In this document: in pieces, positions 55,086 to 58,000 of the stretch
Numbering within the stretch: position 1 is the stretch's first letter
Layout of the letters: each line of letters starts with the position of its first letter
Assembly (NCBI RefSeq): GCF_013167455.1
Contig: NZ_CP038328.1
Length of the DNA: 64,000 nucleotides
DNA from: Escherichia coli O157:H7
GTDB taxonomy: Bacteria; Pseudomonadota; Gammaproteobacteria; Enterobacterales; Enterobacteriaceae
Reading direction: 5' to 3' (one strand)
Position numbers: made by a program

Positions 55086-58000
55086 TAGTTGCTGACAGAT
55101 TTATCCGCTCCATAGTGGGCGGATAATCTCCCCTTCCCCAACCTTCTTCGTAACGCCTCGCAAATTTCTTGTCTTTCGCTGCAACGAAATAAAAAACCTC
55201 GGAAGCAGCTTTCCCGTTTCGTTTTTTGCCCCTCGCCTGTGCTGATGGCGTTTGCCAAAGTAGCACCAACCAAATCAAGGAGCGAAACAGATGGACAAGC
55301 AACGCGGTTTTACACTTATCGAACTGATGGTGGTTATTGGCATCATTGCCATTTTAAGCGCCATTGGTATTCCCGCTTATCAAAACTACCTGCGCAAAGC
55401 CGCACTCACCGACATGCTACAAACCTTTGTGCCTTACCGTACCGCCGTAGAGTTGTGCGCGCTGGAACATGGTGGATTAGATACCTGCGACGGTGGCAGC
55501 AATGGCATTCCCTCGCCTACCACCACCCGCTATGTTTCAGCCATGAGTGTGGCAAAGGGCGTGGTGTCGCTGACCGGGCAAGAAAGTCTCAATGGGCTAA
55601 GCGTCGTCATGACGCCAGGTTGGGATAACGCAAACGGCGTCACCGGCTGGGCGCGCAACTGCAATATTCAAAGTGACAGCGCATTGCAGCAAGCCTGCGA
55701 AGATGTCTTCCGCTTTGATGACGCCAACTAAGGAGCGGCAATGAATATTCCACAGCTCACGGCCCTGTGCCTGCGTTATCAGGGAGTCTTGCTGGATGCC
55801 AGCGAAGAAGTGGTTCATGTTGCGGTGGTCGATGCCCCCTCACATGAGTTGCTGGACGCATTGCATTTCGCTACCACCAAACGTATTGAGATCACCTGCT
55901 GGACGCGCCAACAAATGGAAGGTCACGCCAGTCGCACACAACAGACATTGCCCGTAGCTGTTCAGGAGAAGCATCAGCCCAAAGCAGAGTTGCTGACTCG
56001 AACGTTACAATCTGCGCTGGAACAACGCGCGTCTGATATTCATATCGAACCAGCGGACAATGCCTACCGCATCCGCTTGCGTATCGACGGCGTATTGCAT
56101 CCTTTACCGGATGTTTCACCGGATGCCGGAGTCGCATTAACCGCCAGATTAAAAGTGCTGGGAAACCTGGATATTGCGGAACATCGCCTGCCGCAGGACG
56201 GGCAATTCACTGTCGAACTGGCAGGAAACGCCGTCTCATTTCGTATTGCGACCTTACCATGTCGGGGTGGTGAAAAGGTGGTATTAAGGTTGTTACAGCA
56301 GGTGAGCCAGGCACTGGATGTTAACACGCTGGGAATGCAGCCGTTACAACTGGCGGGCTTTGCTCATGCCTTGCAACAACCACAGGGACTGGTGCTGGTA
56401 ACTGGCCCTACCGGCAGCGGCAAAACGGTCACGCTTTATAGTGCCCTGCAAAAGCTGAATACCGCTGACATTAATATTTGTAGCGTCGAAGATCCGGTTG
56501 AGATCCCCATAGCCGGACTAAACCAGACGCAAATCCATCCGCGTGCCGGACTCACCTTTCAGGGCGTTTTGCGTGCGTTATTGCGCCAGGATCCTGACGT
56601 CATCATGATCGGAGAGATCCGCGATGGCGAAACGGCAGAAATTGCCATTAAAGCCGCGCAAACCGGTCACCTGGTGTTGTCTACCCTACACACTAATTCC
56701 ACCTGCGAAACGCTGGTACGTTTACAGCAAATGGGGGTCGCCCGCTGGATGCTATCATCGGCGCTTACGCTGGTAATAGCCCAGCGTCTGGTACGCAAAC
56801 TTTGCCCACATTGTCGCCGGCAGCAAGGGGAGCCCATCCACATTCCAGTCAATGTATGGCCGTCGCCGCTGCCCCACTGGCAAGCACCCGGTTGTGTACA
56901 TTGCTACCACGGTTTTTATGGTCGCACTGCCTTATTTGAAGTTCTGCCCATAACACCGGTCATACGTCAGCTTATTTCCGCTAATACCGACGTTGAATCG
57001 CTGGAAACGCACGCCCGACAGGCGGGTATGCGAACGCTTTTTGAAAACGGCTGCCTGGCCGTGGAGCAAGGCTTAACCACCTTTGAAGAGTTAATCCGCG
57101 TATTGGGGATGCCGCATGGCGAGTAAGCAACTCTGGCGCTGGCATGGCATAACCGGCGACGGCAATGCGCAAGATGGGATGCTATGGGCAGAGAGCCGTA
57201 CTTTACTGCTTATGGCACTACAGCAACAGATGGTTACCCCACTAAGCCTGAAGCGAATTGCTATCAATTCTGCGCAGTGGCGAGGAGATAAAAGCGCGGA
57301 AGTCATTCATCAACTGGCGACGCTACTTAAAGCCGGGTTAACGCTTTCTGAAGGGCTGGCACTGCTGGCGGAACAGCATCCCAGTAAGCAATGGCAAGCG
57401 TTGCTGCAATCTCTGGCACACGATCTCGAACAGGGCATTGCCTTTTCCAATGCCTTATTACCCTGGTCAGAGGTATTTCCGCCGCTCTATCAGGCGATGA
57501 TCCGCACGGGTGAACTGACCGGTAAGCTGGATGAATGCTGCTTTGAACTGGCGCGTCAGCAAAGAGCCCAGCGTCAGTTGACCGACAAAGTAAAATCAGC
57601 GTTACGTTATCCCATCATCATTTTAGCGATGGCAATCATGGTGGTTGTGGCAATGCTGCATTTTGTTCTGCCGGAGTTTGCCGCTATCTATAAGACCTTC
57701 AACACCCCACTACCGGCACTAACGCAGGGGATCATGACGCTGGCAGACTTTAGTGGCGAATGGGGCTGGCTGCTGGTGTTGTTCGGCATTATGCTGACGA
57801 TAGCCAATAAGTTGCTGATGCGCCGCCCGACCTGGCTTATCGCGCGGCAGAAATTGCTGTTACGCATCCCGATTATGGGGTCACTGATGCGGGGACAAAA
57901 ACTCACGCAGATCTTTACGATTCTGGCGCTGACTCAAAGTGCAGGCATTACTTTTTTACAGGGCGTAGAGAGCGTCAGAGAAACAATGCGCTGCCCGTAC

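What the first reader, a model, noticed from the sequence alone, without database searches (positions are those of the whole stretch)
57116..57126. Multiple start/stop overlaps indicating translational coupling
Overlaps occur at fhuD/fhuB (1542..1545), fhuC/fhuD (2432..2435), pcnB/folK (15275..15278), yadG/yadH (29252..29255), ampD/ampE (53556..53559), hofB/hofC (57116..57126) and coaE/zapD (60241). Several genes also use non-ATG starts (fhuB GTG, hrpB GTG, panC GTG, acnB GTG, speD TTG, usher TTG).
Basis: seen in the sequence. Interest (0 to 1): 0.1.

Follow-up and report, generated by a model that had tools for sequence, protein, structure and literature searches.

The report
Ordinary start/stop overlaps in E. 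coli operons
The flagged spots are the short overlaps between the end of one gene and the start of the next that are routine in bacterial operons. They are real, they have already been catalogued for E. coli, and they probably, though not provably here, link the translation of neighbouring genes.

Summary
The window is 100% identical to E. coli O157:H7 17B6-2 (NZ_CP038414.1 4612381-4676380).

**Observation.** All seven overlaps exist in the RefSeq annotation:
- -4 nt: fhuD/fhuB, pcnB/folK, yadG/yadH, ampD/ampE.
- -1 nt: fhuC/fhuD, coaE/zapD.
- -11 nt: hofB/hofC (ATG 57116, TAA 57124-57126).

One detail is off. All six non-ATG starts are correct, but pcnB's ATT start was missed. Overlaps make up 7 of 36 co-directional pairs, which is a typical fraction. 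The same seven distances are already tabulated for K-12 (Huber 2023).

**Conservation.** The hofB/hofC, ampD/ampE and coaE/zapD junction geometries are the same in all 12 Escherichia and Citrobacter relatives examined. The HofC N-terminus is conserved as protein, which fixes its start.

**Interpretation.** Translational coupling is the standard inference, but none of these pairs has been tested directly. Published cell-free start-site data show that the isolated yadH, ampE and zapD start regions initiate on their own. Those of hofC, folK, fhuD and fhuB do not, which fits dependence on upstream translation. Published work puts -11 outside the range where reinitiation is efficient.

**Verdict.** Real, ordinary and already known.

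The parts
57116..57126 (+). hofB/hofC 11-nt overlap: hofC ATG at 57116-57118, hofB TAA at 57124-57126 (ATGGCGAGTAA)
   Evidence: Sequence read; ORFs; PGAP annotation. The same -11 spacing is found in 12/12 Escherichia and Citrobacter loci. It is listed as -11 for K-12 in the Huber 2023 supplement.
57105..57109 (+). Weak Shine-Dalgarno-like GGGGA inside hofB, 6 nt upstream of the hofC ATG
   Evidence: Anti-SD duplex of -5.5 kcal/mol. It is only -3.7 to -5.5 in relatives, because it lies in the Gly codon of the conserved HofB ...LGMP tail.
55741..57126 (+). hofB (annotated gspE), type IV pilus / T2SS assembly ATPase
   Evidence: PGAP annotation; Pfam T2SSE PF00437, E = 3.9e-146.
57116..58318 (+). 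hofC, PilC/GspF-type inner-membrane platform protein
   Evidence: PGAP annotation; Pfam T2SSF, two stretches, E = 1.5e-57; PDB PilC 3jc8, E = 4.9e-44. N-terminal residues 4-27 are conserved as protein in 12 relatives, and there is no conserved alternative start.
55291..55731 (+). ppdD pilin gene, first cistron of ppdD-hofB-hofC. Its TAA stop lies inside the hofB SD (cTAAGGAG), with +9 spacing to hofB
   Evidence: No sigma-70-like promoter was found in 55000-58500. Transcription depends on Sxy and CRP (PMC1635313).
1542..1545 (-). fhuD/fhuB 4-nt overlap (GTGA), with a GTG start for fhuB and a strong SD GGAGG upstream
   Evidence: SD -10.6 kcal/mol. Listed as -4 for K-12.
2432..2432 (-). fhuC/fhuD 1-nt overlap (TGATG). 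fhuD has essentially no SD
   Evidence: SD -2.2 kcal/mol. Listed as -1 for K-12. The alternative TTG at 2435 would give -4.
15275..15278 (+). pcnB/folK 4-nt overlap (ATGA)
   Evidence: Listed as -4 for K-12. The PcnB-FolK COG pair has a median spacing of -1 across genomes.
29252..29255 (-). yadG/yadH 4-nt overlap (ATGA). yadH begins ATGATG, so its second ATG would give a 1-nt overlap
   Evidence: The start is seen by INRI-seq and by in vivo Ribo-RET.
53556..53559 (-). ampD/ampE 4-nt overlap (ATGA) with a strong conserved SD AAGGAG
   Evidence: Spacing of -4 in 12/12 relatives. The start is seen by INRI-seq and Ribo-RET.
60241..60241 (+). coaE/zapD 1-nt overlap (TAATG)
   Evidence: The junction sequence is conserved in 12/12 relatives. 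The ZapD N-terminal peptide [16 protein letters not shown] was detected, and the TIS is listed with Ribo-RET and INRI support.
   Evidence: AUU initiation of pcnB was established by Binns & Masters 2002, as cited in PMC2939334.
41340..41342 (-). acnB GTG start
   Evidence: INRI-seq about 410-490 CPM and Ribo-RET 191 at the K-12 equivalent.
23943..23945 (+). panC GTG start, 11 nt after the panB stop
   Evidence: INRI-seq positive.
37375..37377 (+). speD TTG start, 15 nt after the speE stop
   Evidence: INRI-seq positive.
17488..17490 (+). Fimbrial usher TTG start
   Evidence: The K-12 htrE TIS is weakly positive in INRI-seq.
10900..10902 (-). hrpB GTG start. The longest ORF begins 45 nt further upstream at an ATG (10947)
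   Evidence: No INRI-seq or Ribo-RET signal, so this start rests on annotation only.

Best explanation
These are ordinary short start/stop overlaps between adjacent cistrons of polycistronic E. coli operons: fhuACDB, pcnB-folK, yadGH, ampDE, ppdD-hofBC and coaE-zapD-yacG.

Shown: the overlaps exist, have the canonical geometries (ATGA/GTGA, TGATG/TAATG, plus one 11-nt case), are already tabulated for K-12, and are conserved across Escherichia and Citrobacter for the three pairs that could be examined.

Inferred: each downstream start codon lies inside the footprint of a ribosome terminating on the upstream gene. Downstream translation is therefore coupled to upstream translation to a gene-specific degree. 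This would work by termination-reinitiation (the post-termination ribosome repositions onto the nearby start, helped by an SD inside the upstream ORF) and/or by the upstream ribosome melting structure around the start.

For hofB/hofC, a ribosome stopping at UAA 57124-57126 would have to move back about 5-8 nt to put AUG 57116 in its P site. With a weak SD and no detectable stand-alone initiation in vitro, hofC is probably translated mainly by such inefficient reinitiation, giving less HofC than HofB. hofC, folK, fhuB and fhuD look coupling-dependent. yadH, ampE and zapD can also initiate independently.
For: - Identity to an annotated genome and direct reading of the junctions.
- 7 of 36 co-directional pairs overlap, with -4 and -1 enriched. 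This matches the genome-wide pattern and the roughly 15% figure.
- All seven distances are listed for K-12 in the Huber 2023 supplement.
- Spacing of -11, -4 and -1 is kept in 12/12 loci although the overlapped bases vary.
- HofC residues 4-27 are conserved as protein, and the ATG is the only conserved start.
- There is no promoter-like site between ppdD and the end of hofC.
- The experimental precedent is 13 of 14 native overlapping pairs coupled.
- INRI-seq on isolated start regions gives no de novo signal for hofC (even though its RNA, at 2073 CPM, is the most abundant of those listed for this region), folK, fhuD or fhuB. It gives clear signal for yadH, ampE and zapD.
- The silent start regions either have the highest predicted opening energies (folK 16.6, fhuB 13.6, hofC 13.5 kcal/mol) or lack an SD (fhuD, -2.2).
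- The hofC SD is weak in every relative.
- Four of the seven pairs encode parts of one machine (FhuCDB, YadGH, HofB/HofC). This is the class enriched among close-spaced pairs, and the PulE-PulF COG pair has a median spacing of +4.
Against: - I found no direct coupling experiment for any of these seven pairs.
- Four of seven undetected in INRI-seq is not significantly above the 30% background non-detection rate (binomial P about 0.13, my arithmetic), and a zero can simply mean a weak start region.
- The higher opening energy of overlapped start regions (Mann-Whitney P = 0.035) is confounded by their lying in GC-richer coding sequence. The hofC and folK regions fold no better than shuffled sequence (z = +1.1 and +0.9), so there is no sign of an evolved occluding structure.
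- Conservation of the spacing could follow from purifying selection on the HofB C-terminus and the HofC N-terminus alone.
- The -11 spacing lies where published coupling efficiency is already reduced.
- bioBF shows that a -4 overlap can be uncoupled.
Confidence: 0.75

Rival explanations
1. The overlaps are neutral by-products of genome compaction and easy mutation, since an ATG already supplies three of the four bases of ATGA. The downstream genes are translated by independent de novo initiation at their own SD, with no functionally relevant coupling.
For: The isolated yadH, ampE and zapD start regions initiate efficiently in vitro, and yadH and ampE show in vivo Ribo-RET peaks. ampE and yadH have strong AAGGAG SDs, and fhuB has GGAGG. 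The review attributes the abundance of -4 partly to how easily it evolves. bioBF is an uncoupled -4 pair. pcnB/folK and coaE/zapD encode functionally unrelated proteins, so a stoichiometry argument does not apply to them.
Against: hofC, folK, fhuD and fhuB show no stand-alone initiation in vitro. fhuD has no SD and hofC only a weak one. A start codon inside the footprint of a terminating ribosome cannot be wholly independent of upstream translation. Four of five tested E. coli -4 pairs were strictly coupled.
Confidence: 0.2
2. Some overlaps are annotation artefacts. The true downstream start lies further downstream, so there is no overlap.
For: hofC, folK, fhuD and fhuB have no experimentally mapped TIS in the data I could read. 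INRI-seq reports an in-frame CTG +120 peak in fhuD (4 of 5 replicates, in vitro only). PGAP and K-12 annotations disagree on another start in the window, gluQRS.
Against: HofC residues 4-27 are conserved at the protein level in 12 relatives, while the next in-frame start codon varies in position (codon 12 to 48). ZapD's N-terminal peptide starts at the annotated Met. The ampE and yadH starts are mapped in vivo. The fhuD +120 start would delete its signal peptide (an inference from the N-terminal MSGLPLISRRRLL... sequence). PGAP and the K-12 table give identical distances for all seven overlapping pairs.
Confidence: 0.04
3. The 11-nt hofB/hofC overlap is a programmed +1 frameshift site that yields a HofB-HofC fusion protein.
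For: hofC is in the +1 frame relative to hofB. The hofC frame is open for 24 nt upstream of its ATG, so a shift inside that short window would fuse the two proteins.
Against: There is no slippery motif in GGG AUG CCG CAU GGC GAG UAA. The G-rich SD-like element is 14 nt from the stop, too far to act as a prfB-type stimulator (established knowledge of prfB). There is no stable structure downstream. The overlapped bases vary freely among relatives. PilB and PilC are separate proteins in all characterised systems.
Confidence: 0.01

Closest known systems
E. coli -4 overlapping pairs shown to be coupled by termination-reinitiation (hyfHI, astDB, ydbH/ynbE, menDH; Huber et al. 2019, PMC6728339)
   Same: These are native co-directional pairs with ATGA overlaps and an SD inside the upstream ORF. 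fhuD/fhuB, pcnB/folK, yadG/yadH and ampD/ampE have the same geometry.
   Different: Those pairs were tested with premature-stop reporters and the pairs here were not. The same paper's bioBF pair shows that the geometry does not guarantee coupling.
trpB-trpA (UGAUG) and other classic coupled pairs (atpHA, rplJL, infC-rpmI), as cited in PMC6728339 and PMC10666635
   Same: They have the 1-nt stop/start overlap of the TGATG/TAATG type seen at fhuC/fhuD and coaE/zapD, and they lie in polycistronic operons.
   Different: trpBA encodes two subunits of one enzyme. coaE and zapD have unrelated functions, and the isolated zapD start region initiates by itself in vitro.
Longer 'phase 1' overlaps (-8, -11, -14 ...) discussed by Huber et al. 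2023 (PMC10666635)
   Same: hofB/hofC at -11 has the same frame relation as -8. That frame relation cannot shrink to -2 or -5, so longer overlaps tend to be retained in it.
   Different: -11 is beyond the -8..+10 window the authors treat as predictive of reinitiation, and synthetic constructs lose coupling progressively from -4 to -25. Coupling here is expected to be weaker and is untested.
pilB-pilC / gspE-gspF gene pairs of type IV pilus and type II secretion systems
   Same: HofB is a T2SSE ATPase and HofC a T2SSF platform protein. The two genes are adjacent and tightly spaced across prokaryotes, with a median of +4 and a listed spread of -4 to +26.5 over 1304 pairs.
   Different: The exact spacing is lineage-specific. 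The -11 overlap was seen in Escherichia and Citrobacter only, and I could not sample wider. The E. coli operon is silent without Sxy.

Membership tests
Short co-directional start/stop overlap (translationally coupled operon junction) | Two adjacent genes on the same strand whose stop and start codons overlap (ATGA/GTGA, TGATG/TAATG or a slightly longer overlap) | tested here: met
   Seven pairs; sequences and distances; identical distances in the K-12 table.
Short co-directional start/stop overlap (translationally coupled operon junction) | The downstream start codon is the true initiation site | tested here: inconclusive
   Met for zapD (N-terminal peptide plus TIS data) and for ampE and yadH (INRI-seq plus Ribo-RET). 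Supported for hofC by comparative evidence only. There is no experimental mapping for folK, fhuD or fhuB in the data read.
Short co-directional start/stop overlap (translationally coupled operon junction) | Both genes lie on one transcript | tested here: inconclusive
   An overlap leaves no room for a terminator and promoter between the genes, and no promoter-like site was found in 55000-58500. No RNA data were examined.
Short co-directional start/stop overlap (translationally coupled operon junction) | An SD motif within the upstream ORF at the proper spacing | tested here: inconclusive
   Strong for fhuB (-10.6), yadH and ampE (-8.5). Moderate for folK (-6.2) and hofC (-5.5). Weak or absent for zapD (-4.3) and fhuD (-2.2). 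The contribution of the SD to coupling varies from gene to gene.
Short co-directional start/stop overlap (translationally coupled operon junction) | Downstream translation depends on ribosomes reaching the end of the upstream ORF | not testable with these tools
   This needs premature-stop reporter constructs. There is only indirect evidence. The isolated hofC, folK, fhuD and fhuB start regions give no initiation in INRI-seq, while yadH, ampE and zapD do.
PilB/GspE (T2SSE) ATPase plus PilC/GspF (T2SSF) platform pair | Upstream protein has a T2SSE domain with a P-loop, and downstream protein has two T2SSF domains | tested here: met
   Pfam PF00437 at 3.9e-146 for HofB. PF00482 at 1.5e-57 with two stretches for HofC. 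PDB PilC 3jc8 at 4.9e-44.
Programmed ribosomal frameshift site | A slippery sequence plus a stimulatory element at the overlap | tested here: not met
   There is no slippery heptamer or prfB-like CUU-UGA context in 57095-57126. Local folding is no better than shuffled sequence. The overlapped bases are not conserved.

The most novel reading that the evidence does not exclude
The 11-nt hofB/hofC overlap, invariant in spacing across Escherichia and Citrobacter although its bases vary, could be a selected device. It would make hofC translation strictly dependent on inefficient backward reinitiation by ribosomes finishing hofB. That would set a low HofC:HofB ratio suited to a hexameric ATPase docking on a low-copy platform protein, and would keep HofC from being made from partial transcripts.
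Probability: 0.2. Interest if true: 0.2.

Novelty: already known. Interest (0 to 1): 0.06.

Why it matters
It matters little beyond annotation quality. The check confirms that the gene starts at these junctions are sound and corrects two details: the fhuC/fhuD overlap is 1 nt, and pcnB starts at ATT. It also shows that "overlap" should not be read as "coupled". Published start-site data split the seven junctions into ones that can initiate independently (yadH, ampE, zapD) and ones that probably cannot (hofC, folK, fhuD, fhuB). If the -11 hofB/hofC junction were shown to couple strictly, it would be a modest natural example of reinitiation at a longer overlap.

Tried and rejected
- **Occluding RNA structure at the hofC and folK start regions.** The 120-nt folds are no more stable than dinucleotide shuffles (z = +1.1 and +0.9). 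The high opening energies probably reflect coding-sequence GC content.
- **Programmed frameshift at hofB/hofC.** Rejected on sequence grounds.
- **Alternative hofC start.** There is no upstream start in the ORF, and the next in-frame starts are not conserved.
- **PDB alignment to fix the HofC N-terminus.** Structures align only from residue 61 onward, so I used comparative protein conservation instead.
- **Wider phylogenetic sampling of the junction.** The single genome-contig scan returned only Escherichia and Citrobacter. I substituted the published COG-pair spacing.
- **Literature search for direct coupling tests of these pairs.** Nothing was found for fhuCDB or pcnB-folK, and the ampDE search returned no title suggesting one.
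- **Supplement of the Ribo-RET preprint.** It is not held. I used the Ribo-RET values re-tabulated in Hör 2022.
- **CRP-S-like site upstream of ppdD.** There is one 2-mismatch match at 55147-55162, but such matches are not above chance in the window.
- **Rfam scan.** There are no RNA families at any junction.
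Full report
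**What the window is**

An 8-kb query around the finding matched E. coli O157:H7 genomes at 100% identity. The whole 64,000-nt window is identical, base for base, to NZ_CP038414.1 4612381-4676380. The RefSeq/PGAP gene coordinates can therefore be used directly. The flagged position lies in the ppdD-hofB-hofC type IV pilus operon, where PGAP calls hofB "gspE".

**Checking the observation**

Read directly, the sequence at 57100-57129 is gtattggggatgccgcATGgcgagTAAgca. The hofC ATG is at 57116-57118 and the hofB TAA at 57124-57126, an 11-nt overlap.

I built the table of all 55 annotated genes and the 36 co-directional neighbour pairs.

| Pair | Spacing | Motif | Window position |
|---|---|---|---|
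| fhuD/fhuB | -4 | GTGA | 1542-1545 (-) |
| fhuC/fhuD | -1 | TGATG | 2432 (-) |
| pcnB/folK | -4 | ATGA | 15275-15278 (+) |
| yadG/yadH | -4 | ATGA | 29252-29255 (-) |
| ampD/ampE | -4 | ATGA | 53556-53559 (-) |
| hofB/hofC | -11 | ATGGCGAGTAA | 57116-57126 (+) |
| coaE/zapD | -1 | TAATG | 60241 (+) |

The one inaccuracy is fhuC/fhuD. That TTG is the longest-ORF start, whereas the annotation gives a 1-nt overlap. The genes overlap under either start.

That is the experimentally established AUU start (Binns & Masters 2002, cited in PMC2939334).

**Is it more than chance?**

Seventeen pairs are spaced within +/-20 nt. Four of them are at exactly -4 and two at -1. Under uniform spacing the binomial P is 6.5e-4 and 1e-4 respectively. 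This simply reproduces the well-known genome-wide pattern:
- -4 is by far the commonest spacing, followed by -1 and -8 (Brown & Wade 2025; Huber 2023).
- About 15% of co-directional pairs overlap in most prokaryotes (Huber 2019). The window has 7 of 36, or 19%.

The supplementary pair table of Huber 2023 already lists all seven K-12 pairs with the same distances, including hofB/hofC at -11. The 111-nt hofB/hofC junction is present in 5424 of 5426 complete E. coli genomes, at 99% identity or better in 5271.

**Are the downstream starts right?**

- **hofC.** The ATG at 57116 is the first possible start in its ORF. In 12 loci from other Escherichia and Citrobacter species (HofC 65-95% identical) the ATG is at the homologous position. 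Residues 4-27 (K-x-L-W-x-W-x-G...G...W-A-E-x-R) are conserved as protein. The next in-frame start codon wanders between codons 12 and 48. No other start is compatible with this.
- **zapD.** A deformylation-assisted N-terminomics study reports the peptide [16 protein letters not shown] at the annotated Met and lists Ribo-RET and INRI support (PMC13245402 supplement).
- **ampE and yadH.** The annotated starts have both cell-free (INRI-seq) and in vivo (Ribo-RET) peaks (PMC9825163 Table S2).
- **folK, fhuD and fhuB.** I found no mapped start. These rest on annotation.

**Conservation**

The hofB/hofC spacing is -11 in 12 of 12 loci, yet the overlapped bases vary. HofC residues 2-4 read ASK, ANK, AAK, NAK, IAK, SSK, VAK or STN. 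The HofB tail after the conserved ...LGMP reads HGE, HGG, HGS, HER, DDR, NEQ or NVH.

ampD/ampE is -4 with a conserved AAGGAG in 12 of 12. The coaE/zapD TAATG junction is identical in 12 of 12, although one locus has an apparent frameshift inside coaE.

This shows the arrangement is stable. It does not prove selection for coupling, because losing the hofB stop would add roughly 50 residues (my reading of the frame, not a tool result) and losing the hofC ATG would remove conserved residues. Ordinary protein-level selection would therefore also preserve the spacing. More broadly, the PulE/PilB-to-PulF/PilC gene pair is tightly spaced across prokaryotes, with a median of +4 and a listed spread of -4 to +26.5 over 1304 pairs. 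The -11 value is thus a lineage-specific version of a generally close arrangement.

**How it most likely works**

Established knowledge says that translation of a downstream gene is often coupled to the upstream one when stop and start are within a few nucleotides. The proposed mechanisms are termination-reinitiation and unfolding of the start region. Thirteen of 14 native overlapping pairs tested were coupled, with bioBF the exception. Efficiency falls as overlaps lengthen from -4 towards -25 (Tian & Salis). Huber 2023 treats -8 to +10 as the predictive range.

For the pairs here, the most informative data are from INRI-seq. That method translates each K-12 start region in isolation (-30 to +153) in a purified system with retapamulin, so upstream translation cannot contribute.

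| Gene | INRI-seq (CPM) | In vivo Ribo-RET |
|---|---|---|
| yadH | 66-136 | 7.7 |
| ampE | 12-41 | 5.9 |
| zapD | 15-20 | 0 |
| hofC | 0 (RNA at 2073 CPM, the most abundant listed for this region) | 0 |
| folK | 0 | 0 |
| fhuD | 0 | 0 |
| fhuB | 0 | 0 |

. The K-12 oligonucleotides match the window, or differ only by single substitutions near the hofC, ampE and fhuB starts.

The silent group coincides with the weakest or least accessible start regions in my calculations. Predicted opening energies are 16.6 kcal/mol for folK, 13.6 for fhuB and 13.5 for hofC, which puts all three among the four highest of the 54 starts. fhuD has essentially no SD (-2.2 kcal/mol). The hofC SD-like GGGGA is weak in every relative (-3.7 to -5.5).

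My reading is therefore that hofC, folK, fhuD and fhuB probably depend on upstream translation. yadH, ampE and zapD are at most facultatively coupled.

For hofC specifically, I infer the following. A ribosome terminating at 57124-57126 has its P site on GAG 57121-57123. The AUG lies 5 nt behind that, so reinitiation needs a short backward repositioning and is likely to be inefficient. HofC would then be made at a lower level than HofB.

**Caveats**

- Four of seven silent start regions is not significantly above the 30% background non-detection rate (P about 0.13).
- The opening-energy difference (P = 0.035) is confounded by coding-region GC content.
- The hofC and folK regions fold no better than shuffled controls.
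- ppdD-hofBC is transcriptionally silent without Sxy and CRP (PMC1635313). In vivo profiling under standard conditions therefore cannot inform on hofC.
- No direct coupling test of any of these pairs turned up.

**Rivals**

- Independent initiation with the overlap as a neutral by-product remains viable, especially for yadH, ampE and zapD.
- Mis-annotated starts are unlikely, given the comparative and experimental evidence.
- A HofB-HofC frameshift fusion is rejected. There is no slippery site or stimulator, and the overlapped bases are variable.

**Comparison with known systems and novelty**

These are members of the textbook class of short co-directional overlaps, with the same geometry as the experimentally coupled hyfHI, astDB, ydbH/ynbE, menDH and trpBA junctions. 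The protein families at the flagged junction are confirmed. HofB is a T2SSE ATPase and HofC a T2SSF platform protein.

Every feature is already annotated, and the spacings are already tabulated in the literature. Nothing here is new.

The only mildly interesting residue is that the -11 hofB/hofC junction is a natural, conserved overlap beyond the range where reinitiation is considered efficient, and that published cell-free data hint it cannot initiate on its own.

Noticed in passing
window 13881-13883 (+): pcnB is annotated with a non-canonical ATT (AUU) start. It gives no INRI-seq signal in vitro.
   Followed up: partly
window 29250-29255 (-): yadH begins with a tandem ATGATG. The first ATG gives the -4 overlap and the second would give a -1 (TGATG) overlap with yadG. 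INRI-seq and Ribo-RET report an extra peak labelled '+7 ATC' next to the annotated start, which may reflect use of the second ATG.
   Followed up: partly
window 55729-55740 and 60982-60993 (+): At ppdD/hofB and zapD/yacG the spacing is +9, and the upstream TAA stop is embedded in the downstream SD (TAAGGAG). The ppdD/hofB +9 spacing is conserved in 12/12 relatives. zapD/yacG is +9 in 9 and +22 in 3 Citrobacter loci. These are candidates for coupling as good as the overlaps, as are eight other pairs spaced +11 to +20 nt.
   Followed up: partly
window 12895 vs 12925 (+): gluQRS start disagreement. PGAP starts the gene at 12925 (298 aa), while the longest ORF starts at ATG 12895 (308 aa). The K-12 dksA-gluQ gap is listed as 36 nt, against 66 nt here. 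INRI-seq detects only the in-frame ATG at +30, which supports the PGAP start.
   Followed up: partly
window 49826-49939 (+); 61214-61291 (-); 61694-61763 (-): Rfam matches above gathering score: tp2 sRNA beside the aceE start, on the opposite strand, in the pdhR-aceE intergenic region; naRNA4 (CssrE) between yacG and mutT; and STnc40 between mutT and secA. None lies at any overlap junction.
   Followed up: no
window 58319-59620: hofC is followed by convergent guaC and the tiny yacM, then coaE-zapD-yacG. Across prokaryotes a prepilin peptidase gene (PulO/PilD) commonly sits just upstream of coaE, with a median gap of +4. The locus therefore looks like a pilBCD-coaE cluster that lacks pilD and has guaC inserted.
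   Followed up: no
window 10900-10947 (-): hrpB is annotated from GTG 10902, but the ORF extends to an ATG at 10947. Neither INRI-seq nor Ribo-RET detects the annotated K-12 start, so this start is unverified.
   Followed up: no
window 15758-23002 (+): The O157 fimbrial operon downstream of folK differs in spacing from the K-12 yad operon. The folK-to-major-subunit gap is 280 nt here against 369 nt in K-12, and the subunit-to-chaperone gap is 86 against 97.
   Followed up: no
L014 (Citrobacter amalonaticus AUH_CA_2023_1), coaE region: The coaE reading frame hits a stop 162 nt before the zapD start, although the TAATG junction sequence is intact. This is probably an assembly frameshift or a pseudogene.
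   Followed up: no
window 55147-55162 (+): A 2-mismatch match to the CRP-S core (TGCGA-N6-TCGCA) lies about 130 nt upstream of ppdD. Matches of this quality are not enriched in the window (27 found against 44 expected), so it is only a lead to the published Sxy/CRP-S site.
   Followed up: no
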